Below are positions 12,546 through 52,554 of a stretch of 64,000 nt of DNA, piece after piece. The translations under genes were made by a program, and so were the position numbers. Source of the DNA: Eledone cirrhosa (lineage: Eukaryota); the NCBI GenBank assembly GCA_964016885.1, contig CAXHJY010000818.1:62001-126000 (forward strand), written 5' to 3'. How positions within the stretch are numbered: position 1 is the stretch's first letter; the number at the start of each line of letters is the position of its first letter. Below the pieces are notes generated by a model, which made no database searches, was not told the DNA's origin, and saw nothing but the letters and a program-made list of their open reading frames with translations.

Positions 12546-12549
12546 ATGA
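12546..12549 (+). CDS. Cytokine receptor exon 1 (ATG A|gtgagt)
   Basis: aaaaaATGA|GTGAGT; phase 1 joins exon 2 to give MRVLKIFYIL... Confidence 0.6.
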
Positions 12550-13593
12550 GTGAGTATATTCATATTTAATCATTAAAAAAAACAACAACTTTTCTATTAA
12601 TTGTATTTATTAATTGTGTTAATATTTTCATTCTGAAAGAATTGTGAACAATTTCTGTTATTTATACAACTGTGAATAAAATGAATTATCTATCGTAATG
12701 AAATAAATAGACTACTCGTTATATTAACTTCTGTTTACACTGATAAGAGTAGCTGTGATAAACTTAGTTTTTTTTCTACATATATCAACTGTTTAAAGTT
12801 CATAATTGTCTTTGGACTGGTGGTCGGTGGTTGTGATCGACATAATTAATTCTTGTAGAAATGACTCATAATGTGTTTATTTAATTAAGGAATTCAGCGA
12901 TGCTGTCTGTGAACGGTTCGTATATATATATATATAGTTGGAATTCCTTTTATTAATATAATCTTCTATACACACTCATACACACCCGTGTATATTTATC
13001 TATCTATCTATCTATTATATTGTATTGTAATTAGTCTTAGGTGATTTTACCTAAGACTAATTACAATATAATATATATATATATATATTGCTTTATTACT
13101 TTACTACTATATATACGTATATGTAAGGTTCTTATGAATTATCTAAGACTGAGTTTTACACATACACACATGTATGTGTGTGTGTATGTGTATGCATGTG
13201 TATATGTATGTATATGTTTATATATGTATGTATATATATATGTATATATATGTATGTGTGTATATGTATGCGTGTGTGTGTTTGTATTTGGTTGTGCGTG
13301 TTTATGATATATACGTATTTGTATGTGTATAATTGTTTAGCTATGTATATGTGTGTGTATGTGTACGTATATGTGTGTGTGTGTGTGTGCGTTTATATTT
13401 ATGTATATATATATATATATAGTTTTGCGAGGTTTTTTATATGAAATCGTGTGTCGAAACAGATATTGTTATATTTGGGGAGGGTCATATTTGCGTAATA
13501 TTGCCAGAATTAATAACAGAACACACTCAAACAGTGAGTGTGTTCTGTTATTAATTCTGGCAATATTACGCAAATATGACCCTCCCCAAATAT

Positions 13594-17431: not shown

Positions 17432-20400
17432 ATTTAGGACCCCAACGGCTGAGCTCCGGCCGTTTCGTAAGCTAGATCCGAATCAGCCCACTCGAGTACT
17501 CTGGTGAGTTATGGTCCACCTAGTATCTTACCACACCCTCTTTGTTATATGTAACACACACACACATTATGATTTTTCTAATGTTTTATTTATTTATTTA
17601 TTTTTGTTTTTCTCTCTTCAGGGGTTTTAAAAATATTTTACATCTTAATTCTTGGGTACTTGGTACTACTACAGCAGACTGATGCTACTGGTATGTGTGT
17701 TATTATTATTATTTATCAACTGTGTTATTATTATTTAGGGGCGGTGAATTGGCAGTATCGGTAGAGGGTCGGACGCCATGCTTTGACGCATAGAGTTACG
17801 GCCCTTGCCATTCTGAGTTCAAATCCCGCCGAGGTTAACTTTGCCTTTCATCCTTACGGGGTCGATAAAATAAAGTACCAGTAATGTACTGGATTATTTG
17901 CTGGCCTTGTGCCAATAGTAGAAACAATTATTATTATTTATCAACTCTTGTGGTTAATAAAGAAAGCATTATTTTGTGCCTAAAGTAGAAACAATTATTA
18001 TTATATTGGCAGTATAACTTGGCAGGTTAACTTTGCTTTTCATCCTTACGGGGTCGATAAAATAAAGTACCAGTAATGCAATGGGGTCGATTTAATCGAC
18101 TTTCCCCTCCCCCAAATTACTGGCCTTGTGCCAGTAATCATTATTTCTCCAGCGGTGGATTGGCAGTATCGGTAGAGTCGGACGCCATGCTTTCTAGCAT
18201 AGTTACGTCCCTTTACGATCTGAGTTCAAATCCCGCCGAGGTTGACTTTGCCTTTCATCCTTACGGGGGTCGATAAAATAAAGTACCAGTAATACACTGG
18301 AATAATTGCTGGCCTTGTGCCAAAAGTAGAAACAATTATTTCTGCAGCTGTTTTTTTGCCTCCTTACTAAACCAAGTTGACGTCATAACTGATGACCTAG
18401 CAATTTTTGGTTACTTTCTTCGGTGGTTTATCTTCTCATCCAACCTTCTCAAAATTCTAGCTGCTCCTACCACCACAACTACTACTACTACCACCACAAC
18501 TACTACTACTACGACCACAACTACTACTACTACCACCACAACTACTACTACTACCACCACAACTACTACTACTACCACCACAACTACTACTACTACTACC
18601 ACCACAACTACTACTACCACCACAACTACTACTACCACCACAACTACTACTACCACCACCACAACTACTACCACCACCACCACAACTACTACTACCACCA
18701 CAACTACTACTACCACCACAACTACTACTACCACCACCACAACTACTACTACCACCACAACTACTACTACCACCACAACTACTACTACTACCACAACTAC
18801 TACTACCACCACCACCACAACTACTACTACCACCACCACAACTACTACTACCACCACCACAACTACTACTACCACCACAACTACTACTACCACCACAACT
18901 ACTAACACCACCACAACTACTACTACCACCACAACTACTACTACCACCACCACAACTACTACTACCACCACAACTACTACTACCACCACCACAACTACTA
19001 CTACCACCTCAACTACTACTACCACCACAACTACTACTACCACCACCACCACAACTACTATTACCACCACCACAACTACTTCTACCACCACCACAACTAC
19101 TACTACCACCACAACTACTACTACAACCAACACCACCACCACTACTACCACCACCACCACTACTACTACTAACACCACCACCACTACTACTACTACTAAC
19201 ACCACCACCACTACTACTACTAACACCACCGCTACTACTAACACCACCACCTCTACTACTAACACCACCACCACCACTACTACCACCACCACCACTACTA
19301 CTAACACCACCACTACTACTAACACCACCACCACTACTACTACCACCACCACCACCACTACTACCACCACTACTACTACTACTACTACCACCACCACCAC
19401 TACTACTAACACCACCACCATAAACAGTACAGTTTCTCTTTCATTGCAGAATCTTCCCGCTATACAATATACCGGAATGTTTTGGAATATATTGTGGTTA
19501 GTTTCAACTCTTCATTTCAGCCCAACAATTATTGGAAAGTCGAATGGTAACTACAGAATTAAATTACTACAATTTGTACTATTGCGATCATGTGACCATG
19601 TGGTTAACACTACATGGTTGTGTGGGTAAGGCCACATGGTGTTGCAATCATGTGGTTAACACTACATGGTTGTGTGGGTAAGGCCACATGGTGTTGCATC
19701 ATGTGGTTAATGCTACATGTTTGTAGGGTTAAGGCCACATGGTATTGCGATCATGTGGTTAACACTACATGGTTGTGTGGTTAAGGCCACATGGTATTGC
19801 GATCATGTGGCCATGTGGTTAACACTACATGGCTGTGTGTTAAGGCCACATAGTATTGTGATCATGTGGTTAACACGTGTATAGGGTTAAGGCCACATGG
19901 TATTGTGATCATGTGGTTAACACTACTTGTTTGTATGGTTAAGGCCACATGGTATTGCAATCTTGACGCCATGTGGTTAACACTACATGTTTGTAGGGTT
20001 AAGGCCACATGGTATGGCGATCATGTGGTTAACACTACATGGTTGTGTGGTTAAGGCCACATGGTATTGCGATCATGTGGCCATGTGGTTAACACTACAT
20101 GGTTGTGTGGTTATGGCCACACAGTATTGTTATCATGTGGTTAACACTACATGGTTGTGTGGCTAAAGCCCATGGTTATGTGGTTAACGCTACATGTTTG
20201 TGTGGTTAAGGCCACATGGTATTCTAATCATGTGGTTAATACTACATGGTTGTCGTTATGGCCACATGGTGTTGTAATCATGTGGCTATATGGTTAAAAC
20301 CACATGATGTTGTAACCATGGTTATGTGGTTAAGCCCACATGGTGTTGCAAACATGTAGTATTTGGTTCTGTCCCACCTAATGGCACACTGGACAATTGT

Positions 20401-23400
20401 ATTCTAATGTAATGTCACACCGATCTATGGCTTGTAGACTGAATTAGCGTGGAAGTCCGTCTTACACACATGCATACATGCACACAGACACACTCACACA
20501 CACAGATATATATAGTATTAAATAGATCAAAGGCCATATGCAGTTGTATTTAGGTTTATTTTTATCTCCATGACACATTTTGCCGAGGTCTACAGCTAGA
20601 TAGTTTTCTTCCTACCTATTCCAATACTCGACAGGCGGTAGAAAAACCCTTTAACATTTAAATATCCGGCCAGAATTCTCTCACCTCTTTCTCTTCAAAC
20701 TGGCTGTAACTGGCCACTCATACTGATGTTAAGGTATGGTTCTCAAAATAAATAATATCAAAATCTCATAGATTTGATATTATGTGAGGTAAAGCCTTTA
20801 TCACGAAAATACAATAGTAAATATAGAGTAATGTACATGTTACGTGAGGTAAAGCCTTTATTGTGGAAATACAATAGTAAATATAGAGTAATGTACATGT
20901 TACGTGAGGTAAAGCCTTTATTGTGGAAATACAATAGTAAATATAGAGTAATGTAAATACTAAAGGGTTAAAACAATTTTGCACAACTTGAAAACCTTAA
21001 AAATATTAAAAATCTTCCTGAAAAAATTTCTAAATCTTCCTCAAAAAATTTGTTTCATTTTGTGATACAGGGCTCAGAAGAATGTGTTGTTGTTTCTATG
21101 CCACCTGACCCTTGATGATTTCTTTTGAATGAAACAGTTCTAGTCCTGTAGAAGCCATTTCTATCTTAAACTTGATGTTTACACTACTAATGTATTGAGT
21201 ACTTTACTAACTGTGGTTACCCCTGATTGAACCCAGGACTCATATTTATATATATGCCAATCACATATATGTATTACTGCGTGACCTCTGGCATCACGCA
21301 CATGGCTACAAGCCGAAGCTGGAGCCTAGAGACAATATGCCCCCACCCCCTCCCACTGTAAAGTGGTCGTGGAGGGGCCACGGCAAAAAAGCACCCAGCA
21401 CTCACTGTAAATGAGGTTGGTGTTAGGAAGGGCATCCAGCTGTAGAAATCAAACCAGAATCAGTTCCCGTATGAGCAAGACATGGTCAGCCGACCAGACA
21501 CTGCCCACAACAGGACAACCCGTCTAACCCATGCTAGCGTGGAAGAATGGACTAAAAACTGTGATGATGATGATATACCAATCTCATATATGTGATTGGC
21601 ATCTTCCAGCCTGATAAGTTGAACACTCTACATTTACATCTCATAAATATATATATATATACAATATTAATATATAAGGGAACAAAGAATCAGTGTTGCA
21701 TCGTATACATATTTAATTACATATTACATATGTTTCACTGTCGATCAGCTCGAGGAACGATCTATTAATGATTGAACCTGACTCTGGAATCGGAAGCTCC
21801 TCAGATATGTTTTTAACATGTAGACTCAAGTCTACATGTTAAAAACATACCTGAGGAGCTTCCGATTAAAAAACATTAATAGATCGTTCCTCGAGCTGAT
21901 CGACAATGAAACATATGTAATATGTAATTAAATATGTATATGATGTAACACTGATTCTTTGTTCCCTTATTAATATTATTGATACTTTGCTCCCCAAGAG
22001 CATCGAGTGCTCATTCGGCATACCACCTATGGATGCAATTAATTTACACCTTAATACCTATGTATATGATATGTGTATATATATATATAAATATGATTTA
22101 TGATTGACACATACATATATACATTTTCATCTCTCCAGTATTTCCTTTAAGCAGCTGTTAGATGTATTTCTAGTGACTAATTCTAATGTCTGTTGTTTTC
22201 AGTTATTGTTCATTATATAACAAAACATGGTCACCTTGTAAAAACATATCTTCCAATAAATTCGATTCTTTTGAGAAACTGTATTTTTGTTTCAATATAA
22301 CTATCAATGAACAACAACAAGTTTGGAGTGAAACCAAATGTTTCAAGAAATTAGATATTCCAAGTAAGTATATTGAATATATTAACCCTTTTTCTACCAA
22401 ACCACCTGAAACCTCCTTGGTTTTATCATATACATCTCCCCATATTGAAAAATATCTATATTCAAAACTTCCATGAAATTGTTTGTTTGTTTTTAAAAGA
22501 AATTTTTGTTAAGTAATGTTCTCAACATCAGTTTAGTAATAAAAAGGGGAATTATTTCAATAAATTTAATAATGAAAAGGTGAATTATCTTAATAATTTG
22601 CTCCAAATTTTTGACGATTTGAAAAAAAAATGAATTGAAACATATATTTCATTAGAAATATGCAAACTTTGACAACAAAAAGTTTCTCCCTATGTACAAA
22701 GGACGACTGCATGTGCCTGCTTCCAAAATGCCTAGTTAGCATGATGTCTGTCATTTATCTGAAAAGAAATAATAATTAGAACAGGAGACTGCGATGGTAT
22801 GGACAGATGATGCGCATGGAGGATGACTGATGGATGAAGAAGTGCCAAGAAATGCCAGTTGAAGGAAGACGCAGTAGAGGAAGACCACGAAAAACATGGG
22901 CAGTGGTGGTGAGAGCAGACCTCAGATTGCTGAAGCTCACGGTGGAGATGACAAAGGACTGTGACAAGTGGAGAGATGCTGTGCTGAATAGGACCCATCC
23001 CAACCTTGCAAGCAGGGAAAAGCGGACGTTAAATGATGATGATGATGTATAACATATGTATATGTACAATATATGTATGTATAATATATATATGTATAAT
23101 ATATGTATGTATAATATATGTATATGTATAATATATATAAATACTTGTGTTTTTCAGTTTCTTTGCCACCTTTGGAGAACATTAAGTTTTCATCTTTACA
23201 GACTTCTGATCCTTATAAAAAGTCATTAAATCTGGAATTGGTGAAAAGCTATTCTCCGGCATTATTTATATATCGTATAAGGTACAGAATTCGGTATTGG
23301 CCAGAATGGAAACCCACAGAAGTTACAAATGTAAGTCAATTTTTAAGAGCTGACATTTAAGAATTTGGAGAGATTTAGTAATATAACTAACTTTTACGTT

Positions 23401-25681
23401 AGCCCCCCCCCCCCCCCCCACACACACACTCTCTAATACAAAACTGTTCATAAATGTTTGTATTTATCTAAAAACTTTCCCTCATAATTTTATGTAGGAA
23501 GCTTTGTTATGTTATGTTCCAAACATGAGCTTAATAATGAGAAAGTTATATTACTTGATATCCCCCCTCCATACACACGCACACATGCATATCATGACTC
23601 ATACACTGTTCACTTTCCTGACATTTGTATATTATTCTATGTACTATACTTGCACCTTTGATGAGTGTAGTGCAGCTGAGCACTGTAAACAATAATTCCA
23701 TTATTATTATTATTATTTAAATCACTCCATGTTCTTGATTATTTGTAAAATTAATTGAAAATTCTGGGCAGTGTCTTTCATGAGAAATATGATAATGAAT
23801 GGGTTAAAAGTGAACTAGAAGCTTGTTTATAGGGAGGAAAAATAAAGGAAAGAAGCTGATCATAAGATCAGAACAAAGAAACAATGTTTCTATTGTTCCT
23901 TCCATTGCTAATACTATCTGTCAGTCACAACTTCTGGCAAAAGAGGCAGGATACAAACTCAGAATGCACAGAACTGGACCAGATACCAAAAAACATTCTG
24001 TGAGACTCTTTAACTATGCCATCAATTTACCACCCATGGACTGGTACTTTATTTATCAGTCCTGAAAGGATGGAAATTATAGGATCTGAATTCAGGACAC
24101 TGAAACCCGGAATACATATCTGAGTCATTTAATCCACCTCACAAATGACTCTAACTTACTGCACTTGTTTTATAATTTACTTCTTCTTGAACCACTTATT
24201 CCTAGAAGGGTCTTGGATGTAGAGTTCTCAGGTACATTTTCCAGCAAGTCCTATCAAAAGCAGTCGTCTCCAACTGATCCCCAAGCGATCTCATGGATAT
24301 TATCCAACTATCTTACTTGAGGGTTTACCCCTAGGTTTCCTGTTGGCTGGTTTTGCCCATAAAATCTGACCAGCAATTCTTTCATGAGACATTTTAACCA
24401 AATGTCGATAATATAGGAGCTGTGATGTCTCAATTCGGAGAAGTATCGACTCTACCTGGAGCGTCTCTGATCTCCGAGCTACACCCCGTCGAGTAATGTT
24501 ACTCTAAAGACCCTTTGGAGGAACCTCTTTCTAACCACATGCCCATAATATTAGAGCTGTGATCTCTCAATTCAGAGAAGTAGCGGCTCTACCTGGATTG
24601 ACTCCCTGAACTCCGAGCTACGCATCCTATCAAGTAATGTTACATCAAAGACCCTTCAAAAGGAACCCTATTTCAGCTGCTTGTATTTCTTATCATATAC
24701 TTCCAGCCTTTACCCAAGATTCATGACTTTCTTTAATTCTATTCAATCCATGTCATTTGAGTGTAATTTATTCACATGTATGAATATAACTGAAGAAAGT
24801 TATCAAGTAGTAATGAACAGACGATCGTAACTTGTGGTAGTCATCCTTTTGTCCTTTTATACTCTTTTCAACTGGAGAGCAACTATCTAAAATTACCTTT
24901 TGGAGTTACTTCCCTTACATTAAGTTACTTGTGATAAGAGTTGTTTGTGCATGTTTGTAATCTTTTTATATATTTTATACAAAAAATTGTTTTTTTGGGG
25001 AGATGTTATTTTTTTTTATTTTTTAATCCAGATGATGTCACATCCTTCCCAAACGTTTATTTTGAAAGACCTAATGCCCTTTACCAACTACACATTCATC
25101 GCAGATTTCAAAAGTATCGGGAAGCAGCAATTTATACCGGAATGGTCTCCATCATTTAAAAAATATTTTATAACAGAAACTGGTTTGTTTCAATTTTGTT
25201 TTTAATATTTTATGATGGGTTGGTAGAGGTGGTTGATAGAACATGGGATAAAATGCCATCGTGGTATTTGTCTGGCTTTTTACATTCTGAGTTCAAATCC
25301 TGCCAAAGTCAACTTTGTCTTTCATCTACTCTCCCTCTTTCTGAAGTTGATAAAAGAAACTACCAGTAAAATACTGGGGTTGATTTAATCAACTCTGCTC
25401 TTCCCCCAAATTTACTGGTTTTGTGACTAAATTTGCAGCCGATATTCCATGGTGGATTTGCAGCATAGGTAGAACAACAAATAAAATGTCTTTTGCCATT
25501 TTGATATATCTATTTATATTCTGAGTTCAAAATCTCATTGGAGTGGACTTGGTTTTTTCTTCTTTTATCGTCAATGAAATGAAGTTCCTGTCAAGTTTTC
25601 AGAATAATTGATAATTTGAGTATGGCCTTAACATATGTGGTCTTGTATCAATAGTAGAAATCAAGAGTTCACATTTCACAA

Positions 25682-25715
<34 letters not shown>

Positions 25716-26323
25716 CATATATAAATAAAGGGAACAAAGAATCAGTGTTGCATCATATACATATTTAATTACATATGTTTCACTGTCAATCAGCTCGAGG
25801 AACGATCTATTAATGATCAGACCTGACTCTGGAATTGGAAGTTCCTCAGATATGTTTTAACGGACGCAATTAACTTGCACCTTGACACTTATATATATAT
25901 ATATATATATATAGTGTAAACAAAGTTTCATACACTTAACATGTATGTGTTACCAATAGTTTCAGGGTCCAGTCATGGCCACCACCGTATATTGGAAGAG
26001 GCACTTCTAAGCTGGCCCTTCATTCAGGCACGTGAAAAAAAAAACGATAAGACACGTGATGGTTTTGTATTGTTTTATTTTTTAGTATGTGTTAATATAT
26101 TTGTTTCTACTTTTGGCACAAGGCCAGCAATTACCCAGTACATTACTGGTACTTTATTTAATCGACCCTGTAAGGATGAAATGCTAATTTAACCTCGGTG
26201 GGATTTGAACTCAGACCGTAAAGGGACGTAACTGTGCTGGAAATATATATATATATATTTATTTTAAGACTATATATATATATATAGTCTTAAAATATAT
26301 ATATATATATAGTCTTAAAATAA

Positions 26324-26360
<37 letters not shown>

Positions 26361-26368
26361 TAAAATAA

Positions 26369-26399
<31 letters not shown>

Positions 26400-27445
26400 G
26401 TCTTAAAATAAATATAAATATATATATATATATTAAGACTATATATATATATATAAAGACTATATATATATATATAAAGACTATATATATATATATAAAG
26501 ACTATATATATATATATAAAGACTATATATATATATATAAAGACTATATATATATATATATAAAGACTATATATATATAAAGACTATATATATATAAAGA
26601 CTATATATATATATATATATAAAGACTATATATATATATATATAAAGACTATATATATATATATATTAAGACTATATATATATATATATATATGGAGGCA
26701 CATGGCTTAGTGGTTAGAGCATTGGCCTTGCAATCGAAAGGTTGTGAGTTCAATTCTCAGACCGGGTGATGTGTTGTTTCCTTGAGCAAGACACTTTATT
26801 TCACATTGCTCCAGTTTACTCAGCTGTAGAAATGAGATGATAGGGGCTGGGGTCCCTATCATTCCACTGCAAAGTGGTCGTGGAGGTGCCACGGCAAAAA
26901 AGCACCCAGCACTCACTGTAAATGAGGTTGGTGTTAGGAAGGGCATCCAGCTGTAGAAATCAAGCCAGAATCAGTTCCCGTCCCACCCTTGCAAGCAGGG
27001 AAAAAACGGACGTAAAATGAAATGATGATGATGATATATTAAGACTATATATATATTAAGACTATATATATATATATTAAGACTATATATATATATATAT
27101 ATTAAGAATATATATATATATTAAGAATATATATATATTAAGAATATATATATATATTAAGAATATATATATATATATATGTGTGTGAGTGTGTTAATAT
27201 AATATTCTCTCTTTCGTCACAAACAATGGTCATTGTTTTATTTCTTGCCAGCTGCTCCTTACCCAGTCCAAACCACAAATAGCAGTTACTATGAATGGAA
27301 TTGTTCCAACACAACCCAGGAAAGGTGTATTACAGTATTTTGGCAGGTATGAAGAAATGTTTCTATTTGTATATCTAACAAGTAAAGTAATATCATCATT
27401 TTACGTCCACTTTTCCCTGCTTGCAAGGGTGGGACTTTTATATAT

Positions 27446-27478
<33 letters not shown>

Positions 27479-30400
27479 TGGCAGGTATATAGAAATATAT
27501 CTATTTGTATATCTAATGGTTAAGATAATAAATATATATCTATTTGTATATTTAACGAGTAAGGTGGTATATTGGCGGGTACATAGAAATATTTTACCAT
27601 ATATATTTTATATTTTAACAATATTTTACCAAATATATTTTATATTATAACAATATTGTAACATTATTATTGTTTATCGTCTTTACAGAGTTTACCATTG
27701 AAATTCCGGAATGATATTATAACTGGATATTGTGTTCAATATATTGGTGAAAGTTTATCATCCAATGAAACTGATCAATGCCTGGATTCACACAATCTTA
27801 CCGTTAATTCTTTATATAAACATTTTCGATATCTTCCAAAGAACCAAACACTCACATTTTCCATCGTGGCAGTATCAAAAAGTAAGAGAATATCTCAACC
27901 CACATTTATACAGGTGAAAAACACAGGTAATTACACCTTTTAGTTTGTTTAACCCACTCATTACTATACTTGTATTTCTAATGAAAGACACTGTCCACTA
28001 TGTCATTAACCCTTTCATTGCCATATTTCTAATGAAAGACAGTCTATGTCATTAACCCTTTCATTACCCTATTTCTAATGAAACACACTGTCTATGTCAT
28101 TAACCCTTTCATTGCCCTATTTCTAATGAAAGACACTGTTCCCTATGTCATTAACCCTTTCATTACCATATTTCTAATGAAAGACACTGTCCCCTATGTC
28201 ATTAACCCTTTCATTACCATATTTCTAATGAAAGACACTGTCCCCTATGTCATTAACCCTTTCATTACCCTATTTCTAATGAAAGACACCGTCTATGTCA
28301 TTACCCTGTCATTACCCTATTTCTAATGAAAGACACTGTCTATGTCATTACCCTATTTCTAATCAAAGACACTGTCTATGTCATTAACCCTGTCATTACC
28401 TTGATGTAAGAAATATGAAATAAATATGAAACATTGATTTGTTGACTTTTTCAGCTCCAGTGAAACCCAAAGCAGTTTATGTAATGAAAATAGGTGAGAA
28501 AATGTACAATGTGTCGTGGTTAGTTGAACAACCAGAGGAGGTTGTTAGTATAACAGTGCTCTGGTGTCAGGAGGAGATCTTGTCTTCTAAAATGCAATGC
28601 AAAGTAAGTACACTATGTCCACTACCACCTCTATCACAACCACCACCACCACCACCACCATGACCACTACTAACCACCACCACCAAATGGTAATAATGGT
28701 AGAAGCAGTGGAAAAAACACAAGACAGACAGACAACAACAACAACAGTAAATTATATGAAATTCTTCTATTTTTAGGATCATGTCAAATGGGAAACAATT
28801 TCAAATGAAAGTTATGTCTTGGTAAATTCCAGTTTAGAAGAACTGCCAATATTTTCTGCTTCTGTCAACACAAAAGATGGTGAAAGTCCCTTAACACGAG
28901 CTGAATGTATATTCACTCCTGGAAAACGTAATTATTACAATTTCATACAACAACAACAACACACACAACGAAGGCTTCAACCCTTTAGTATTTGCATTAA
29001 TCAGTATCGGTAGAGGATCAGATGCCATGCTTTGCAGCATAGAGTTACGGCTCTTTGCAGTCTGAGTTCAAATCCCGCTGAGGTTAACTTTGTCTTTCAT
29101 CCTTATGGAGTCGATAAGATAAGGCACCAGTAATTCACTGGAATAATTGCTGGTTTTGTGCCAAAAGTAGAAACAATTATTCTCAATATACTATTGTGTT
29201 TTCATGGTTAAGACTTTATCTTACATAATTACCTCACATAATATCAAATTTATGAGATTTTGATATTATTTATTTTGAGAACAATACTTTAACATTGGTA
29301 TGAGTGGCCAGTTATGGCCGATTTGAACAGAAGAGGTGAGAGAATTCTGGCCGGATACAGCCGGTTTGAATGCTAAAGGGTTAAGGTTATTTTTACCCTG
29401 TTAACACTATAATAATTATATTACTCTATATTTACTATTATATTTTCACAGTAAAGGCTTTACCTCACATAACATTTCCATTACTCTATATTTACTATTA
29501 TATTTTCACAGTAATGTCTTTACCTCACATAATATCTCACATAACATTTCCATTACTCTATATTTACTATTATATTTTCACAGTAATGTCTTTACCTCAC
29601 ATAATATCGAATCTATGAGATTTTGATAATATTTATTTTGAGAACAATACCTTAACATCATTAAGAGTGACCAGTTACAGCCAGTTTGAAGAGAAGAGGT
29701 GAGAGAATTCTGACTGGATATGGCTGGTTTAAATGCTAAAGGATTAGTCTTTCCAGTTCCCGTGGCAAGCTTATCCATTGGGCCTTTACCAACCTCTAGC
29801 TTTTGTCTTTCCTATCACGATCCACATTCATTTTTATCACTTCTCTCACTCAGTCACTTTCATCCTTGCTCAACACATGACCCAACCATCTCACTCCATT
29901 TTTCTTCACAATATTCATCACATCACTGGCTTTATTTCTGTCACCAAAGTTAGCTTTGCCATTCATCCTTACGGTGTCGATAAAATAAAGTATCAGTAAT
30001 GCACTGGGATCGATTTAATTGCCCCCCCCCCCCCCCATTGCTGGCCTTGTGCCTAAAGTAGAAACAATTATTATTATTATGAAAAATATATTATTTTAGC
30101 CACAAAACCTCATAAACCTCAGATTATTTGGGCAGAAACAAAGTTTATTTTGAGATGGCCAACCCTGCAATGTTCTGACTGGAATGGTATACCGGTTGCT
30201 TATGTTCTCATGTATGCAAAGGGGAAAACCTGCAAAAATGGTAAGTCTAATTATTTCCTGTCCTCTTTCTATTATTTGTTGGTGGTACTGTTGGTGTTAA
30301 TATTGTTGTTGTTGCTGCTACTGTTGGTGTTGTTTAGACATCTTTCTTTGAACCTACATCTGGAATGGAAAAAAGAAACAAAATAAAAGATATGTTATTC

Positions 30401-33400
30401 CCATCTTTTCCAAAGATTAATGTGTCTAGTGAAATAGTAGATGTCTTATTCTGATATTCCCATCTTCCCCAAAGATATCGGTGTGATGTGAAATAAATAG
30501 AAATGATATAAAGTTGGTTTTTTTTTTCTGTTCTGTTTTAAAATCCTTTTCAGGTATGAAGAAAGAATATCCGGTGACAGGAATCAAGGCTGTTGAAAGC
30601 AACGTTGTCATCAATGGTTTAGTGGCTGACACAGAATATTCTGTGTGTCTACAACTGAAGACAATGGAAGATATTAGCTTAATGAGTGAAACAGTGACAG
30701 AAACAACTAAAGACACTGGTAAATGGAATTATCTAGAATCTCATGAGGTCTTGGGGTTATTGATGGCTAATATATTGGAATGGTGGGGGGGAGGGGAGTC
30801 TTGGGGTATCTGATGGCTGATATATTGGAATGGTGGGGGGGGTCTTGGGGGTATCTGATGGCTGATATATTGGAATGGTGGGGGGGGGGGGAGGAGGTCT
30901 TGGGGTATCTGATGGCTGTAATAGATTTTTAGGAGACACAGAAATGAGTTATGACTTTCAGTTCTTTCACAAGAAATACTAAAAATGTTACATGGAAGGA
31001 CATTTTTACCATTAAAAAATGAAAAATCTATCATAGTCTTCATGAAATCTCATCTCTACTCTACAGTATTTGCCTTACTTGTACGACCCTCTTTAGTTGC
31101 TAATGACCCTGGGTTTGTTCCTCCAATGTTCCCCTCTCAGGCACCAATTTAATGCTATAATAAATATTCTCACTTTTACAGAAAATTCAAGCCTGATGTA
31201 CCTGGGTGTTTTCATTGGTATTTTTCTCTTTCTTTTGCTCATAACTTTCATATTGAATCATGTGAAAAGGTGAGTCTAGCATTTTTATAACACTTTGTTT
31301 TCACACACATATTATCATGATTATATATATAGAGAGTTATATTGTAATTATGCCTTAGATGAAACACTGTGTAAGGAGTAAATTTTGTTTCTAAATGTAT
31401 TGCCTTCTCCTCCATTTATTTTTGCTTAATATATATATATATATATATATATTTAAAAGTTAAACAAGGTTCAAAGAATGAGTTTTACAATAGATTGGAA
31501 GCACTCAACAGTAATGGTTTTCCAGAGTTATTAATATTAATTCAAAATATTAACAAAATAGATATTCGTGTGATCAAGTATATTTTATTATACATATTTC
31601 AGAGGTACTGAGTTAACTTCAACAGTACGTCCTCATCAGATAAAATAAGATGATGCATGACATACCCTGACTTAGTAGATGGTTAAGATTCACTACCATG
31701 ACTGAATCTTAACCATCTACTATGTCAGGGTATGTCATGCATCATCCTATTTTATCTGATGAGGATGTACTGTTAAACTTAACTCAGTACCTCTGAAATG
31801 TGTATAATAAAATATACTTGTTCACACAAATATCTATTTTATTAATATTTTGAATTAATATATATATATATTATGTTTGTACCACAAAACACCCAGTCCA
31901 CACTGTAAATGTGGTTTGTCATTAGGAAAGGCTTCCAGCTGTAGAAACAGTCCTATATGAGCGAGAGACGGTCACTCGACCCAACTTGCCTTTAAATGGG
32001 ACAAACCCGTCTAACCCATGCTAGCGTAGAAGGTAGACATTAAACGATGATGATGTTACACACATATACACACACAGGTATACACATACATATATGCACA
32101 CACAAACACAATTGATTAATGTGAGGTACAAAATAACTGATTAGAGACTGTTTACCTGTCGCCAACACAACCACATTACAGGGTGGACTGGGTGCTATTA
32201 ACTAATTAGAAACTGTTTACCTGTCACCAATACAACCACATTACAGGGTGGACTGGGTGCTATTAACTAATTAGAGACTGTTTACCTGTCGCCAACACAA
32301 CCACATTACAGGGTGGACTGGGTGCTATTAACTAATTAGAGACTGTTTACCTGTCGCCAACACAACCACATTACAGGGTGGACTGGGTGCTATTAACTAA
32401 TTAGAGACTGTTTACCTGTCGCCAACACAACCACATTACAGGGTGGACTGGGTGCTATTAACTAATTAGAGACTGTTTACCTGTCGCCAACACAACCACA
32501 TTACAGGGTGGACTGGGTGCTATTAACTAATTAGAGACTGTTTACCTGTCGCCAACACAACCACATTACAGGGTGGACTGGGTGCTATTAACTAATTAGA
32601 AACTGTTTACCTGTCACCAATACAACCACATTACAGGGTGGACTGGGTGCTATTAACTAATTAGAGACTGTTTACCTGTCGCCAACACAACCACATTACA
32701 GGGTGGACTGGGTGCTATTAACTAATTAGAGACTGTTTACCTGTCGCCAACACAACCACATTACAGGGTGGACTGGGTGCTATTAACTAATTAGAGACTG
32801 TTTACCTGTCGCCAACACAACCACATTACAGGGTGGACTGGGTGCTATTAACTAATTAGAGACTGTTTACCTGTCGCCAACACAACCACATTACAGGGTG
32901 GACTGGGTGCTATTAACTAATTAGAGACTGTTTACCTGTCGCCAACACAACCACATTACAGGGTGGACTGGGTGCTATTAACTAATTAGAAACTGTTTAC
33001 CTGTCACCAATACAACCACATTACAGGGTGGACTGGGTGCTATTAACTAATTAGAGACTGTTTACCTGTCACCAGCACAACCACATTACAGAGTGGACTG
33101 GGTGCTATTAACTAATTAGAGACTGTTTACCTGTCGCCAACACAACCACATTACAGGGTGGACTGGGTGCTATTAACTAATTAGAGACTGTTTACCTGTC
33201 GCCAACACATCTCTTTTAATGTATTTCAGTTGCCACAAGTATTCTAAATCAATTGATATCAAGACTTTGAACACGGTAAGTTATTCTCTTCTCTGCTAGG
33301 ATGGATTAAATCACTTCCAACTAACAATTCTCTTTCTCATATATATATATATACACGTGTATATAAATACAAACATGTATATATATTTATATAACAAAGG

Positions 33401-33698
33401 AATCGTGGTAAGGAACCAGATGGACCATAACGCACCAGAGTACTCAATACTTAGGGTAGTAGAGTGGGAAATAGGAACAAGTATGACCCCGACGGCAGAG
33501 CTCCAGCCGCTTCGACGGCTTGAGCTGGACTCATATTTATATACACATATATACACACACACACATATATATATATACACACACACATATATATAATATA
33601 TGAAATAAAAATATAAATAAAATATATATAATAAAAATAATACACACACACACACATATATATACACACACACAACATATATACACACACATATATAT

Positions 33699-33769
<71 letters not shown>

Positions 33770-35604
33770 TATATATATATATATACACACATGTGTGTAT
33801 ACTAAATCGCACATATACAGACTCACTAGGAGAATGTTTCCTACTCTTTACATGTTCCAAGCCGACTGGTTGAGGCCATACTGGGGCACAGCCATTCCTA
33901 ATTGAAGTTTTATTTTCTCTTTAAGCTAAATCTCTCTATATATCTATCTATCAACAGATATATGAGAAAATTGTCAGTTGGAAGTGTGTAGAGTGTATAT
34001 GTGCGTGTATATATATACACAAAAAAAAAAATACAGTCCAAGCTGTAATGTGGTCATGTAGGTAACACGGTAAAAAGCTCCCAGTCCACACTGTAAATGT
34101 GGTTGGTGTTAGGAAGGGCATCTAACTGTAGAAAACCTGCCAGATAGTCCTATACGAGCGAGTCAGTCACCCGACCAATCTTGCCTCAAATGGGACAACT
34201 CCCGTCTAACCCATGCTAGCGTGGAAGATAGACGTGAAACGATGATGATGAAACAATCTACACACTTCCAACAACAATTCTCTCATATATATGTTGATAG
34301 ATAGATATATAGAGAGATTTAGCTTAAAGAGGAAATAAAACTTCAATTAGGAATGGCTGTGTCCCAGTAACGCCTCAGCCAGTCGGCTTGGAACATGTAG
34401 GAAAATTAAAACGATTGCATGAGATAAATATTAAGTGTTGTTTTCTGATGTCTGTATCATATATTTAATATATTATTTTCTTGTTTATCCCTAACAGGGT
34501 TCCTCTAGTGATGACACAGAATGCAATTATGAAAAAATTAAAAATTATGAAAATCAAAATGTGGATGGTAGTAAAAAATTGCAGTTTTCGTTATCTGAAG
34601 AATCTGGTTATTTTAGTTACAATTCATCTATGACAGAAAAGCTACGTTTTAATGAGTCGAATGGAAGTCACAAAAGCAGACTATCAGGCGAAATTCATTC
34701 AGGGTATATACAAATTGACAACTCGAAGGAAGAATTTCAAAACACTTTGAAAAATACTGTGATTATTAATAATAACAAGCTTCTCCCTTATAAAATAGAG
34801 AAAACTGGATATGTTTCTAATGAACCTGGTTATGTTGACATACCAGGAGAATGTTTCAGAGAAGGTCAAGAGTCAACTACCACATCTGTAGATGACAATT
34901 ATGTTTCTAACGAATCTGGTTATGTTGACAGACGAGGAGAATGTTTCAGAGGTCAAGAGTCAACTACCACATCTGTAGATGACAATTATGTTTCTAACGA
35001 ACCTGGTTATGTTGACAGACGAGGAGAATGTTTCAGAGGTCAAGAGTCAACTACCACATCTGTAGATGACAATTATGTTTCTAACGAACCTGGTTATGTT
35101 GATGGACAAGGAGAATATTTCAGAGAAGCTCCAGAGTCAACTACCACATCTGTAGATGACAATTATGTTTCTAACGAACCTGGTTATGTTGACAGACCAG
35201 GAGAATGTTTCAGAGAAGCTCCAGAGTCAACTACCACATCTGTAGATGACAATTATGTTTCTAACGAACCTGGTTATGTTGACAGACCAGGAGAATGTTT
35301 CAGAGAAGCTCCAGAGTCAACTACCACATCTGTAGATGACAATTATGTTTCTAACGAACCTGGTTATGTTGATGGACAAGGAGAATATTTTACTAAATCT
35401 AATTCATTTCCTACACATAAAAATACAAACAATAAGGAAAGTATTTCAGATTATATAACGTCTGAACCTGTTATGAAAGATAATGTTCTAGAAAAACTTG
35501 ATGAAATTAATAACAAAAACATTAACTCTGATGAAAATAAACTGAAATTAAAGACTATCGGAAAGAAACTAGAAAGTTTAAAGCTGAAACAGATGAAAAT
35601 ATAA
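12546..35604 (+). CDS. Domeless/gp130-like type I cytokine receptor, full gene span (15 coding exons, 944 aa)
   Basis: Exons 12546-12549, 17622-17690, 19450-19546, 22203-22363, 23158-23330, 25032-25182, 27252-27346, 27689-27926, 28455-28603, 28777-28927, 30100-30240, 30554-30718, 31182-31269, 33230-33275, 34498-35604 all have AG/GT boundaries and matching phases and sum to 2835 nt. The product has a signal peptide, FN3 motifs (L.P.T.Y, EWS, N.II.GY, NG....Y), a TM helix and a Tyr-rich tail. Confidence 0.8.
14270..14843. mobile_element. Fold-back element (probable Penelope-like element terminus), ~255-bp arms
   Basis: 14327-14581 is the inverted complement of 14589-14843; unpaired tail 14270-14326; (TA)n flanks; same family at 13425-13600 and 56611-56935. 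Confidence 0.75.
14640..14684 (+). ncRNA. Type I minimal hammerhead ribozyme motif (mirror copy 14486-14530 on -)
   Basis: Stem I agtca/tgact, CUGAAGA, stem II gtcac/gtgac, GAAA, minimal stem III, CUA triplet. Confidence 0.7.
14879..15305. mobile_element. Fold-back element, ~185-bp arms plus 3' tail
   Basis: 14879-15062 inverted with 15078-15262; related single-arm copy at about 51940-52120. Confidence 0.75.
15815..16060. repeat. 36-bp tandem repeat (about 6 copies)
   Basis: tatatatagtgtatatattgttactctggttgttta. Confidence 0.9.
16250..16375 (-). mobile_element. Third SINE-like family fragment; related copy at about 46790-46900 (+)
   Basis: gatggactggcgtcctgt...gaaaccggg shared between the two copies. 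Confidence 0.6.
16975..17205. mobile_element. Fold-back element with a hammerhead in each arm plus 3' tail
   Basis: 16975-17043 inverted with 17067-17135. Confidence 0.75.
17067..17116 (+). ncRNA. Type I minimal hammerhead ribozyme motif (mirror copy 16994-17043 on -)
   Basis: Stem I acagg/cctgt, core CUGAACGA (one extra nt; CUGAAUGA in the mirror), stem II gttggg/cccaac, GAAA, short stem III c(ttga)g, GUA cleavage triplet. Confidence 0.7.
17622..17690 (+). CDS. Cytokine receptor exon 2: signal peptide (RVLKIFYILILGYLVLLQQTDAT)
   Basis: Strong pyrimidine tract and cag acceptor, gtatgt donor, hydrophobic core with small residues at the cleavage region; phase 1-1. Confidence 0.75.
17737..17930 (+). 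mobile_element. tRNA-derived SINE family A (representative). Other copies: 10139-10325+, 16712-16900-, 18025-18135+, 18151-18340+, 25217-25435+, 26100-26243-, 29004-29180+, 29950-30070+, 37972-38075+, 38400-38500-, 39420-39510-, 39517-39705-, 45330-45510+, 45937-46125+, 46387-46575+
   Basis: A-box-like tggcagtatcgg, B-box gagttcaaatcc, core gcctttcatccttacggggtcgataaaataaagtaccag, (ATT)n tail. Confidence 0.9.
18469..19420. repeat. (ACT/ACC/ACA)n trinucleotide repeat in receptor intron 2
   Basis: Direct inspection. Confidence 0.95.
19450..19546 (+). CDS. Cytokine receptor exon 3 (ESSRYTIYRNVLEYIVVSFNSSFQPNNYWKVEC)
   Basis: ttcattgcag acceptor, gtaact donor, phase 1-2 bridges exons 2 and 4 exactly. 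Confidence 0.65.
19580..20350. repeat. ~49-bp minisatellite; detached copy at 15700-15820
   Basis: ggttaacactacatggttgtgtggttaaggccacatggtattgcgatcatgt. Confidence 0.9.
20647..20967. mobile_element. piggyBac-like MITE with internal 60-bp tandem repeats
   Basis: Ends CCCTTTA...TAAAGGG followed by TTAA; same internal sequence at 29220-29380 and 29420-29745. Confidence 0.65.
21275..21575 (+). mobile_element. RTE 3' fragment
   Basis: Reverse complement of the 7600-7950 region; gatgat tail. Confidence 0.8.
21660..22060. mobile_element. Fold-back element plus tail (fragments also at 16185-16230, 25725-25890)
   Basis: Arms centred on tagactcaagtcta at about 21828; right arm has an internal deletion. 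Confidence 0.7.
22203..22363 (+). CDS. Cytokine receptor exon 4 (YCSLYNKTWSPCKN...CFKKLDIP), Cys-containing first module
   Basis: ttttcag/gtaagt boundaries, phase 2-1. Confidence 0.75.
22778..23048 (+). mobile_element. RTE 3' fragment (another subfamily)
   Basis: RLRWYG.MMR..GRPRKTW remnant, (GAT)n tail. Confidence 0.8.
23158..23330 (+). CDS. Cytokine receptor exon 5 (ISLPPLENIKF...YRIRYWPEW), FN3 N-half
   Basis: ttttcag/gtaagt, FN3 PP.N and Y.IRY motifs, phase 1-0. Confidence 0.8.
25032..25182 (+). CDS. Cytokine receptor exon 6 (LKDLMPFTNYTF...IPEWSPS), FN3 C-half with degenerate WSxWS
   Basis: L.P.T.Y tyrosine-corner motif then EWS; phase 0-1. Confidence 0.85.
26260..26690. repeat. (TA)n-AAGAC compound repeat (continues at 27035-27180)
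   Basis: Direct inspection. Confidence 0.9.
26694..27033 (+). mobile_element. tRNA-derived SINE family B head fused to an RTE 3' tail; head also at 1-120 (-) and about 51200-51325 (-); 3' part at 56980-57250 (-)
   Basis: tggcttagtggttagagc A-box, gagttcaattc B-box, ccttgagcaagacacttta core, then RTE 3'UTR and (GAT)n. Confidence 0.85.
27252..27346 (+). CDS. Cytokine receptor exon 7 (AAPYPVQ...RCITVFWQ)
   Basis: ttgccag/gtatga, phase 1-0, FN3 start with R..TV.W. Confidence 0.8.
27689..27926 (+). CDS. Cytokine receptor exon 8 (SLPLKFRNDIITGYCVQY...)
   Basis: ctttacag/gtaatt, N.II.GY motif typical of gp130/Dome membrane-proximal FN3; phase 0-1. Confidence 0.8.
27960..28400. repeat. ~51-bp tandem repeat containing a piggyBac-like end (ttaaccctttcattacc)
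   Basis: attaaccctttcattaccatatttctaatgaaagacactgtcccctatgtc units. Confidence 0.85.
28455..28603 (+). CDS. Cytokine receptor exon 9 (APVKPK...YNVSW...TVLWC...QCK)
   Basis: tttcag/gtaagt, VSW and T..WC motifs; phase 1-0. Confidence 0.85.
28777..28927 (+). CDS. Cytokine receptor exon 10 (DHVKWETIS...AECIFTPGK)
   Basis: ttttag/gtaatt; phase 0-1. Confidence 0.8.
28981..29380. mobile_element. piggyBac-like MITE interrupted by a SINE A copy
   Basis: CCCTTTAGTATT...AATGCTAAAGGG TTAA terminal inverted repeats; SINE at 29004-29180 inside. Confidence 0.65.
30100..30240 (+). CDS. Cytokine receptor exon 11 (..LRWPTLQCSDWNGIPVAYVLMY..)
   Basis: ttttag/gtaagt; W....C...NG....Y motif; phase 1-1. Confidence 0.85.
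30554..30718 (+). CDS. Cytokine receptor exon 12 (..INGLVADTEYSVCL..)
   Basis: tttcag/gtaaat; GL...T.Y FN3 motif; phase 1-1. Confidence 0.85.
30735..30920. repeat. ~50-bp G-rich tandem repeat
   Basis: gtcttgggg(g)tatctgatggctgatatattggaatggtggggg x3-4. Confidence 0.85.
31182..31269 (+). CDS. Cytokine receptor exon 13: transmembrane helix (LMYLGVFIGIFLFLLLITFIL)
   Basis: tttacag/gtgagt; 21-residue hydrophobic stretch followed by NHVK; phase 1-2. Confidence 0.85.
31460..31862. mobile_element. Fold-back element, ~160-bp arms
   Basis: 31533-31692 inverted with 31703-31862; (TA)n flanks. Confidence 0.7.
31880..32055 (+). mobile_element. RTE 3'UTR fragment (others at 34030-34250 and 38770-38957)
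   Basis: cccagtccacactgtaaatgtggttg...catgctagc...gatgat. Confidence 0.75.
32136..33209. repeat. 65-bp minisatellite, ~16.5 copies
   Basis: actaattaga recurs at 32201, 32266, 32331, 32396... Confidence 0.95.
33230..33275 (+). CDS. Cytokine receptor exon 14: juxtamembrane (SCHKYSKSIDIKTLNT)
   Basis: atttcag/gtaagt; phase 2-0 links the TM exon to the final exon. Confidence 0.75.
33848..34400. mobile_element. Fold-back element with an RTE 3' fragment between its arms
   Basis: 33848-33992 inverted with 34257-34399; RTE piece at 34030-34250. Confidence 0.7.
34498..35604 (+). CDS. Cytokine receptor exon 15: cytoplasmic tail with tandem Tyr repeats
   Basis: ctaacag acceptor in frame with ORF 34561..35604; 87/90-bp in-frame repeats. 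Confidence 0.8.
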   Translation, partial: GSSSDDTECNYEKIKNYENQNVDGSKKLQFSLSEESGYFSYNSSMTEKLRFNESNGSHKSRLSGEIHSGYIQIDNSKEEFQNTLKNTVIINNNKLLPYKIEKTGYVSNEPGYVDIPGECFREGQESTTTSVDDNYVSNESGYVDRRGECFRGQESTTTSVDDNYVSNEPGYVDRRGECFRGQESTTTSVDDNYVSNEPGYVDGQGEYFREAPESTTTSVDDNYVSNEPGYVDRPGECFREAPESTTTSVDDNYVSNEPGYVDRPGECFREAPESTTTSVDDNYVSNEPGYVDGQGEYFTKSNSFPTHKNTNNKESISDYITSEPVMKDNVLEKLDEINNKNINSDENKLKLKTIGKKLESLKLKQMKI

Positions 35605-35850
35605 AACAAAATGATTTCTGTGTTAGTTATATTTGATATGGAATCTTCAGCAGATGAGATTAATGAAAAAAATATTGAAGAAAACAGACAAGAAATAACT
35701 CCAATTCACTTTGGTTTTTGAGATCTCATAAACAATAATTTCTATAAAATATTCAATTATTTTCTGTTTGCAAAGAATCCAAGATAATTTGAAAAATCAA
35801 AACAAAACAAAGTTTCCAAACTGGAAATGGATATATTACAAATATCAAAA

Positions 35851-52224: not shown

Positions 52225-52521
52225 CTGAAATAATATCAAAAAGTGAGAAATAAGATAAACATAAAACTATTTCTATGTAATTACAATATATCATGTGTGA
52301 TGTGTAGCAGAGTGGTGTTTAATATGATATTGGCTATATATATATACTATACTATACACACAGCTCAATATCTATATCTATCTATATATACTATACACAC
52401 AGCTCAATATCTCTATATATATATATCTATATCTATATATATATATTCAATATATAGATATAGATTTAAATACATATATATATATATACTATACACACAG
52501 CTCAATATCTATATATACACA

Positions 52522-52552
<31 letters not shown>

Positions 52553-52554
<2 letters not shown>

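What the first reader, a model, noticed from the sequence alone, without database searches (positions are those of the whole stretch)
34810..35391. Cytokine receptor tail built from a tandem array of dual-tyrosine repeats
Seen: the last exon has 6 full and 1 partial in-frame 29-30 aa units (DDNYVSNEPGYVDxxGECFR(E)xxESTTTSV), each with two tyrosines 7 residues apart in an acidic context. That gives 14 Tyr plus 2 GEYF. Units are near-identical, and the length variants (87 vs 90 bp) keep the frame. Established: gp130/Domeless tails carry a few single pTyr docking sites, not homogeneous arrays. Inference: a recently amplified, possibly copy-number-variable multivalent SH2 docking platform, reminiscent in logic of ITAM or CagA EPIYA arrays, that may tune signal strength.
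Basis: partly seen in the sequence, partly recalled or inferred. Interest (0 to 1): 0.8.

Follow-up and report, generated by a model that had tools for sequence, protein, structure and literature searches.

The report
Expandable tyrosine array in octopus receptor
An unnamed octopus cell-surface receptor, predicted to be built like the interleukin-6 receptor family, carries a tandem repeat in its predicted inner tail whose copy number differs between octopus species and gene copies (two to eight) while one tyrosine per copy is kept, which likely multiplies docking sites for signalling proteins.

Summary
The array is real: seven in-frame units of 29-30 aa (34810-35390) in the last exon of a 14-exon gene. 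A spliced contig joins FN3, transmembrane and juxtamembrane exons to the tail and runs into unit 1. The gene is the probable orthologue of uncharacterised Octopus LOC106877108/LOC115222071, whose N-terminal pair of domains folds like a class I cytokine-binding module.

Orthologues carry an array at the same place: 8 units in O. vulgaris, 5 in O. bimaculoides, at least 5 in O. sinensis, and 2 in a paralogue. Only one tyrosine per unit, [G/D]Y[V/I]D, is shared; the second is specific to this lineage. The arrays form separate clades, so they expanded or were homogenised separately. 'Dual-tyrosine', ITAM-like and 'recent one-off' are therefore not supported. This receptor also lacks a Box1 proline, and its ancestral distal tail lies decayed behind the stop codon.

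Best reading: a coding minisatellite that multiplies a single-SH2 phosphotyrosine docking motif, like the three evenly spaced STAT6 sites of IL-4Ralpha, likely phosphorylated by a kinase on a partner chain. A tolerated neutral repeat remains a serious rival. Phosphorylation, binding and within-species copy number are untested.

The parts
17622..17690 (+). Signal-peptide exon (hydrophobic stretch ending TDAT); the ATG exon upstream is not established
   Evidence: AG/GT, phase 1-1, hydropathy peak; aligns to the N-terminus of O. vulgaris P0027
19450..22363 (+). Exons 19450-19546 and 22203-22363: first domain of the cytokine-binding-type module (D1)
   Evidence: Phases 1-2-1; orthologue D1-D2 model pLDDT 79, best matches class I receptor modules
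23158..25182 (+). Exons 23158-23330 and 25032-25182: second domain (D2), ending in degenerate IPEWS where WSXWS is expected
   Evidence: Phases 1-0-1; no WSXWS match
27252..30718 (+). Six exons (27252-27346, 27689-27926, 28455-28603, 28777-28927, 30100-30240, 30554-30718): three membrane-proximal FN3 domains
   Evidence: 63-65% identity to Octopus homologues, which score Pfam fn3 above cut-off; junctions 30240|30554 and 30718|31182 seen in X1
31182..31269 (+). Transmembrane exon
   Evidence: 19-residue hydropathy 2.8; on the spliced 623-base contig
33230..33275 (+). 46-base juxtamembrane exon at the Box1 position, without proline
   Evidence: Phases 2-0; spliced to 34498; first tail proline at residue 117
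34498..34809 (+). Unique proximal tail with motifs shared with orthologues: YEKI, ESGY[F/Y]S, Y[I/L]Q[I/V]; YENQ (YxxQ) is window-only
34810..35390 (+). The array: 7 units (90, 87, 87, 90, 90, 90, 47 bases), each YVSNE[P/S]GYVD; second Tyr conserved across species, first Tyr lineage-specific
   Evidence: unit variants in runs X1 and X2
35391..35604 (+). Short distal tail with conserved KNTN...DYITSEP; from about 35540 the open frame leaves the ancestral frame; stop at 35602-35604
35541..35748 (+). Decayed remnant of the ancestral distal tail, overlapping the end of the ORF and the 3' UTR (two frames, further stop near 35720)
   Evidence: Local scores 36 and 66 against the O. vulgaris distal tail, each reached by 0 of 1000 shuffles; not checked against reads

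Best explanation
The array is a coding minisatellite in the predicted cytoplasmic tail of a spliced, gp130/Domeless-like octopod receptor, and it likely works by multiplying a [G/D]-Y-[V/I] phosphotyrosine docking motif, one per 29-34-residue unit, for single-SH2 proteins such as a STAT. Shown: the gene, its splicing into the array, arrays of 2-8 units at the same position in seven homologous proteins, and one retained tyrosine per unit. Inferred: ligand binding pairs this chain with another receptor chain; because this chain has no proline in its first 116 tail residues, the kinase is likely a JAK held by the partner; the phosphorylated units then recruit several SH2 proteins at once, so unit number would set signal strength or duration. 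In this lineage a second Tyr (YVSN) was added to the unit while the distal tail, which bears four more such motifs in Octopus, was lost.
For: One spliced contig links FN3, TM, juxtamembrane exon, tail and unit 1. The orthologue's D1-D2 model matches class I receptor modules: ranks 1-15 of 48,161 chains are all cytokine receptor or receptor-like chains, best CNTFRalpha Z 13.8, rmsd 3.0, 181 aligned. Feature neighbours of the ectodomain are OSMR, IL12RB1, LIFR, gp130 and G-CSFR clusters at 0.94-0.96. Units: window 7, O. vulgaris A 8, O. bimaculoides A 5, O. sinensis A at least 5, gene B 2 in each of three species. The motif Tyr is in 31 of 31 units; units were called on that motif, but spacings of 24-35 residues show no skipped unit. 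Unselected columns V(-6) 31 of 31 and S(-5) 30 of 31 are also kept, while window and Octopus units are only 31-42% identical on average. Window units form their own clade (99/97), apart from Octopus internal units (96/96). The same [GD]Y[VIL] class is enriched outside the arrays: 6 sites among 15 and 14 Tyr in the two complete Octopus A tails and 4 among 17 in each B tail (0-1 of 5000 shuffles), 2 among 9 in the window (37 of 5000); the pattern was chosen after seeing the data. The array is acidic and below the charge-hydropathy boundary for folded proteins (0.375 against 0.471). Precedent: IL-4Ralpha Y575/Y603/Y631 dock STAT6 (PMC8442009), and invertebrate STATs group with STAT5/6 (PMC13203501).
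Against: Within the window's array 8 of 10 derived alleles are non-synonymous against 69.3 of 90 non-synonymous sites, a ratio near 1.2, so there is no sign of purifying selection overall (ratio by hand). The conserved motif has R, G, I, E or A at +3, matching neither YXXQ (STAT3) nor YXXL (STAT5) nor YXXV (SHP2/SOCS3) as given in PMC4751595 and PMC1963337. Outside the array, 4 of 7 aligned Tyr are kept in three species against 32 of 107 other residues, only a weak excess. No Box1 proline, no WSXWS and no CX9-10CXW, so JAK coupling is unshown; loss of the equivalent proline makes Domeless dominant-negative (PMC4751595). The window is full of minisatellites (135 rows), two of them in introns of this gene. 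Octopus unit counts come from single reference annotations.
Confidence: 0.5

Rival explanations
1. Tolerated minisatellite. An ancestral 2-3-unit duplication seeds unequal crossing-over in a disordered tail; copy number drifts, one or two tyrosines are enough, and the extra copies do nothing.
For: Ratio of non-synonymous to synonymous change near 1.2 among units; high background of tandem repeats; the same tail has lost its distal part without obvious cost; a motif kept across arrays can follow from selection on one ancestral copy plus homogenisation.
Against: Every period in every homologue keeps the motif, including O. bimaculoides internal units that are only 70-80% identical to each other. 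In the window the first 10 codons show 2 synonymous and 1 non-synonymous change, the rest 0 and 7 (one-sided p about 0.07 by hand, weak).
Confidence: 0.3
2. Decoy or brake. A chain that cannot hold JAK pairs with the signalling receptor and uses its many tyrosine motifs to sequester STAT or to recruit SOCS/SHP2, in the manner of Drosophila Eye transformer/Latran.
For: No proline in tail residues 1-116; Dome P925I loses Hop binding and is dominant-negative, and the authors suggest YXXN motifs as STAT92E sites on Et/Lat (PMC4751595, passages); all 7 lineage-specific tyrosines are YVSN; a second X1 contig shares about 110 bases of the last FN3 exon at about 96% and then diverges, a probable paralogue.
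Against: Et/Lat keeps the JAK-binding site and has a short tail (PMC4751595); here the tail is 388 aa. Octopus orthologues have a proline at tail residue 19 and only one YxxN. The YXXN role is a suggestion in that paper, not a result.
Confidence: 0.12
3. ITAM-like dual-tyrosine platform for tandem-SH2 proteins (Syk/Shark, SHP2).
For: Two tyrosines per unit in 7 of 7 window units in an acidic context; 2 window units and 5 Octopus units carry a further nearby Tyr.
Against: First Tyr absent from 24 of 24 Octopus units; spacing 7 and no hydrophobic residue at +3 in 13 of 14 sites, unlike the ITAM pattern (recalled).
Confidence: 0.05
4. Assembly artefact or untranslated repeat.
For: No contig spans the array; the four holders are one study and may be the source individual.
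Against: Spliced contigs enter and leave the array; four unit types occur in two runs; independent Octopus assemblies have an array at the same place.
Confidence: 0.03

Closest known systems
Octopus 'uncharacterized' LOC106877108 (XP_014781388.1), LOC115222071, CAI9736975.1 (gene A) and LOC106877032, LOC115222231, CAI9736978.1 (gene B)
   Same: Same domain order; 46% identity over 953 columns to O. vulgaris A; array at the same tail position with [GDA]Y[VIA]D in every unit. The window is closer to A (D1-D2 44% against 28-30%; proximal tail 35% against 17-19%).
   Different: Octopus units are 34 aa with one Tyr, window units 29-30 aa with two; the Octopus distal tail is about 85 aa longer; gene B has an extra N-terminal region and 2 units. 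None is described in the papers searched.
gp130 (IL6ST) and the tall class I receptors; Drosophila Domeless
   Same: Cytokine-binding-type module plus three FN3 domains, one TM helix and a long tail.
   Different: No CX9-10CXW, WSXWS or Box1 proline; no N-terminal Ig domain in the model; gp130 uses five non-repeated tyrosines (Y759, Y767, Y814, Y905, Y915; PMC7378365, passage).
IL-4 receptor alpha STAT6 docking region (Y575, Y603, Y631)
   Same: A class I receptor tail with docking tyrosines at even spacing of 28 residues (positions from PMC8442009 and PMC3876430; spacing by subtraction), close to the 29-34 here.
   Different: Three sites, not 5-8; that they sit in diverged rather than near-identical sequence is recalled; binding is proven there and untested here.
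Drosophila Eye transformer/Latran
   Same: Paralogue pairing with a related receptor; YXXN motifs (PMC4751595).
   Different: Et/Lat is short-tailed and keeps the Hop site; this chain is long-tailed and lacks the proline.
Helicobacter CagA EPIYA array and ITAMs (both recalled, not fetched)
   Same: CagA: tandem tyrosine units whose number varies.
   Different: Host receptor rather than an injected effector; no sequence likeness; ITAM spacing and +3 residues not met.

Membership tests
Class I cytokine receptor, gp130/Domeless type | Two tandem FN3 folds forming a cytokine-binding module | tested here: met
   Tested on the O. vulgaris orthologue (44% identical in this part): pLDDT 79, pTM 0.70; CNTFRalpha Z 13.8, rmsd 3.0, 181 aligned; Foldseek top rows gamma-c, IL-2Rbeta, EPOR. 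Plain FN3 tandems follow at Z 11.4-11.6.
Class I cytokine receptor, gp130/Domeless type | CX(9-10)CXW...C...C motif in D1 (PMC1963337) | tested here: not met
   No match in 4 of 4 ectodomains tested
Class I cytokine receptor, gp130/Domeless type | WSXWS at the end of D2 (PMC1963337) | tested here: not met
   IPEWS in the window, NAFWT in O. vulgaris A, STIWN in gene B
Class I cytokine receptor, gp130/Domeless type | Signal peptide, three further FN3 domains, single TM helix | tested here: met
   Foldseek of the full model ranks gp130 chains first, but the model is poor (pLDDT 35, TM-scores 0.1-0.2)
Class I cytokine receptor, gp130/Domeless type | Box1 / LP proline for JAK binding (PMC1963337, PMC4751595) | tested here: not met
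   First tail proline at 117 in the window; at 19 in Octopus A, 23 or 56 in B
Class I cytokine receptor, gp130/Domeless type | Conserved YXXQ STAT site | tested here: inconclusive
   YENQ in the window, absent from both complete gene A tails
Class I cytokine receptor, gp130/Domeless type | Intron phases 1-2-1-0-1 over the module and 2-0 around the Box1 exon (rule recalled) | tested here: met
Class I cytokine receptor, gp130/Domeless type | Binds a helical cytokine and signals through JAK/STAT | not testable with these tools
   No ligand, JAK or STAT of this organism was in hand
ITAM | YxxL/I-x(6-8)-YxxL/I (recalled) | tested here: not met
   Tyrosines 7 apart; +3 is N, R, G or (once) I
Copy-number-variable tyrosine array (CagA EPIYA logic, recalled) | Tandem homologous Tyr units differing in number between lineages | tested here: met
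   7, 8, 5, at least 5, 2, 2, 2
Copy-number-variable tyrosine array (CagA EPIYA logic, recalled) | Unit number polymorphic within a species | tested here: inconclusive
   The 2 RAD-seq runs laid do not cover the array
Copy-number-variable tyrosine array (CagA EPIYA logic, recalled) | Units phosphorylated and bound by SH2 proteins, output scaling with number | not testable with these tools
   Needs experiments

The most novel reading that the evidence does not exclude
Octopods tune cytokine signalling with a coding VNTR: a JAK-less gp130-like chain serves as a multivalent STAT/SH2 scaffold whose valency is reset by repeat expansion, separately in different lineages, and in this lineage the array took over from the lost distal tail, whose terminal GYVSNE motif reappears as YVSNE in all seven units (16 [GDN]Y[VIL] motifs in this tail against 14 and 11 in Octopus gene A and 5 in gene B).
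Probability: 0.2. Interest if true: 0.78.

Novelty: new variant of a known kind. Interest (0 to 1): 0.52.

Why it matters
My searches found no paper on cephalopod cytokine receptors, and a recent survey of the IL6R-JAK-STAT pathway across animals does not mention octopus (PMC13203501, term search). This gives a defined octopod receptor pair and a natural series of 2, 5, 7 and 8 docking units with one versus two tyrosines per unit. That series would let one test directly how the number and spacing of phosphotyrosine sites set cytokine signal output. If copy number varies between individuals, it would be a heritable dial on immune or growth signalling in octopuses. Unchecked scan notes report an amplified IL-6-like cytokine family in the same genome, which would supply candidate ligands.

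Tried and rejected
No whole genome was held, so paralogues, JAK and STAT of this organism could not be sought.

Homologue searches: two word-index searches were blank (tail against longer proteins; one FN3 exon). The HMMER search gave 25 hits; I read 8 and scanned all 25 with Pfam. Only P0013 is a homologue; the other 24 were dropped as matches to unrelated repeats. Pfam on 11 single-exon translations gave nothing above cut-off. The profile of alignment A3 found nothing in the PDB; the single orthologue gave only weak gp130 and PTPRF hits, E 1e-5 to 8e-3. The full-length model was poor, so its low tail confidence is not used as evidence of disorder. The Atlas had no usable hit for the tail. 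Alignment A2 misplaced the tail and TM rows and was not used.

Reads: no RNA holder was listed by record. Summed contig depths in unit 1 (X2 31.9 against 4.9 in the flank; X1 84.2 against 18 and 12.3) look compatible with 5-7 copies, but the tool states that such depth is no copy number, so this is not counted as evidence.

Other readings: the Thr-rich open frame 18467-19418 was rejected as an exon, since the 1552-base contig has 1331 bases upstream of 30100 and my nine exons take 1284. No paralogue lies in the window.

Literature: four searches for this family or arrangement returned nothing relevant (0 papers; 61: 0; 85: 0; two listed 3 and 5 unrelated papers, seen as listings only). Two papers opened for the STAT5 SH2 consensus did not state it. 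No supplements were read, and subscription journals are not searched. Scan look-ups by sequence, words and nearby place were empty.


Full report
Observation. Aligned in codons, the units are 90, 87, 87, 90, 90, 90 and 47 bases, the two short ones lacking three bases, and only the coding frame is free of stops. Every unit begins YVSNE[P/S]GYVD, with tyrosines 7 apart; two units add GEYF through a single G/A change from GECF. The tail has 388 residues and 24 tyrosines, 16 of them in the array.

The gene. Fourteen exons from 17622 to 35604, all bounded by AG and GT with matching phases, read 943 residues without a stop: signal peptide, two domains, three FN3 domains, one hydrophobic helix, a 46-base juxtamembrane exon and the tail exon. 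The ATG exon is not established. Run X1 has no kind on record; I read it as RNA because its contigs skip introns at GT..AG. A record of 623 bases and depth 18 covers 30625-30717 and 31181-31269 with its letters 1-182. A record of the same length and depth covers 34497-34892 with letters 228-623 and has the end of the juxtamembrane exon as its loose end. The coordinates are complementary, so I take them as one contig that joins ectodomain, membrane helix, tail and unit 1. Another contig leads from a unit-7-type copy into the unique 3' sequence. Transcripts therefore do not end or splice before the array. No contig crosses the whole array, and the four holders are one study, possibly the source animal, so the count of seven rests on the assembly plus four distinct unit types seen in X1 and X2.

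Relatives. Of 25 HMMER hits to the tail, one is a true homologue, O. bimaculoides XP_014781388.1. It led to four more proteins among 136 candidates: gene A (O. vulgaris CAI9736975.1, O. sinensis LOC115222071) and gene B (LOC106877032, LOC115222231, CAI9736978.1), all named 'uncharacterized'. The window's gene is closer to A in D1-D2 (44% against 28-30%) and in the proximal tail (35% against 17-19%); O. vulgaris and O. bimaculoides A are 82-84% alike in the tail and FN3 parts, so this is a distant octopod orthologue or, less likely, a third paralogue. A second X1 contig shares about 110 bases of the last FN3 exon at about 96% and then diverges, probably gene B of this organism (not followed up).

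What kind of receptor. The orthologue's first two domains give a good model (pLDDT 79) whose 15 best matches among 48,161 chains are cytokine-binding modules, led by CNTFRalpha (Z 13.8, rmsd 3.0, 181 aligned); plain FN3 tandems follow about two Z units lower. Language-model neighbours of the ectodomain are OSMR, IL12RB1, LIFR, gp130 and G-CSFR clusters. The intron phases are those I recall for class I receptors. Three defining motifs named in PMC1963337 (passages read) fail, however: no CX9-10CXW, no WSXWS and no Box1 proline. I call it gp130/Domeless-like in fold and layout and do not file it as a canonical member.

The array across species. Between the conserved Y[IL]Q[IV] and KNTN..DYI[TF]SEP anchors every homologue has repeats: 8 units in O. 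vulgaris A, 5 in O. bimaculoides A, at least 5 in O. sinensis A (its models end inside the array; isoform models show 4, 5, 5 and 1) and 2 in each gene B. Of 31 units, all have the second tyrosine in [GDA]Y[VIA]D. Units were called on this motif, but the spacings of 24-35 residues leave no room for a unit without it, and V(-6) and S(-5) are kept in 31 and 30 of 31 without being selected. The first tyrosine is in 7 of 7 window units and 0 of 24 Octopus units. In a tree of the 24 full units (7 terminal or cut units left out) the window's six form a clade (99/97) nearest Octopus unit 1, and Octopus internal units form another with gene B unit 1 (96/96). Mean identity is 88% within the window, 86% among Octopus internal units and 35-42% between the window and Octopus A. 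The arrays thus grew from different ancestral units or were homogenised apart. The arrangement is old; the present copies are young.

Other changes in this lineage. The tail has no proline before residue 117, whereas Octopus A has one at 19. From about 35540 the open frame leaves the ancestral one: another frame at 35541-35631 and the same frame behind the stop (35606-35748) still match the Octopus distal tail (scores 36 and 66, each 0 of 1000 shuffles). The lost part holds four [GD]Y[VI] motifs in Octopus A, the last being GYVSNE, the hexapeptide that opens window unit 1. These lesions are read from the assembly only; several lesions in 200 bases suggest old decay rather than one sequencing error.

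Mechanism. The tails use one tyrosine context repeatedly: outside the arrays [GD]Y[VIL] is reached by 0-1 of 5000 shuffles in five Octopus tails and 37 of 5000 in the window (pattern chosen after inspection, orthologues not independent). The array multiplies this context in an acidic, probably disordered stretch. I infer phosphorylation by a JAK on a partner chain and docking of single-SH2 proteins, with valency set by unit number (0.5). IL-4Ralpha is the closest precedent: Y575, Y603 and Y631 dock STAT6 (PMC8442009, PMC3876430, passages), 28 residues apart, and invertebrate STATs group with STAT5/6 (PMC13203501, passages). Against this, the motif fits none of YXXQ, YXXL or YXXV, and change among the window's units looks neutral (8 non-synonymous and 2 synonymous alleles), so a tolerated minisatellite in a repeat-rich genome keeps 0.3. 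A decoy role gets 0.12: Dome lacking its proline is dominant-negative, and YXXN was suggested as a STAT92E site on Et/Lat (PMC4751595, passages), which is the context of all seven added tyrosines. The ITAM-like reading gets 0.05 and artefact 0.03.

Novelty and verdict. No paper in the library names these genes, joins octopus, cytokine receptor and domeless, or joins cytokine receptor, tandem repeat, tyrosine motif and copy number; subscription papers and supplements were not seen. Repeated docking tyrosines are a known device, but a homogenised array of variable length, kept in several lineages of one cytokine-receptor-like family, is a new variant. Earlier scan notes on an amplified IL-6-like cytokine family in this genome suggest ligands but were not checked here. 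Interest 0.52.

Noticed in passing
window 35541-35748 (+): Decayed remnant of the ancestral distal tail behind a frame change near 35540 and the stop at 35604; not checked against reads.
   Followed up: partly
window 30604-30715, run X1 records of 51 and 912 bases: A second, deeper contig shares the last FN3 exon at about 96% and then diverges: probable paralogue, perhaps kept alike by gene conversion. Octopus genes A and B are also much more alike in FN3 (75%) and distal tail (84-91%) than in D1-D2 (25%).
   Followed up: partly
window 34600-34617 (+): ESGYFS, kept as ESGYYS in both Octopus A tails and absent from gene B; resembles the DSGxxS beta-TrCP degron of vertebrate cytokine receptors (recalled).
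   Followed up: no
window 12540-12555 (+): ATG followed by one base and a GTGAGT donor at 12549; would supply the start of the signal peptide in the right phase. Candidate first exon only.
   Followed up: no
window 18467-19418: Trinucleotide-based repeat in the intron after the signal-peptide exon, open as a poly-Thr frame of about 320 codons; no room for it in the spliced contig.
   Followed up: partly
window 49600-50200 (-): Exons of a tyrosine-kinase-like domain that look like RYK/Derailed by recall; neighbouring gene, tail to tail.
   Followed up: no
window 7897-9213 (-) and 52328-55528 (+): Reverse-transcriptase open frames of non-LTR retroelements, the second 1066 aa with an endonuclease-like start (identity recalled).
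   Followed up: no
window 33841-33940 and 34310-34400: Inverted pair of about 90-100 bases in the last intron, seen by eye; similar inverted pairs occur in other introns.
   Followed up: no
window 32134-33209 and 27973-28400: Intronic minisatellites (65 bases x 16.6; 51 bases x 9) in the same gene, ending close to splice acceptors.
   Followed up: no
P0031-P0033, P0035 (O. sinensis LOC115222071): The annotated isoforms end inside the array or after unit 1 and differ in unit count (4, 5, 5, 1), probably an assembly gap or alignment artefact.
   Followed up: no
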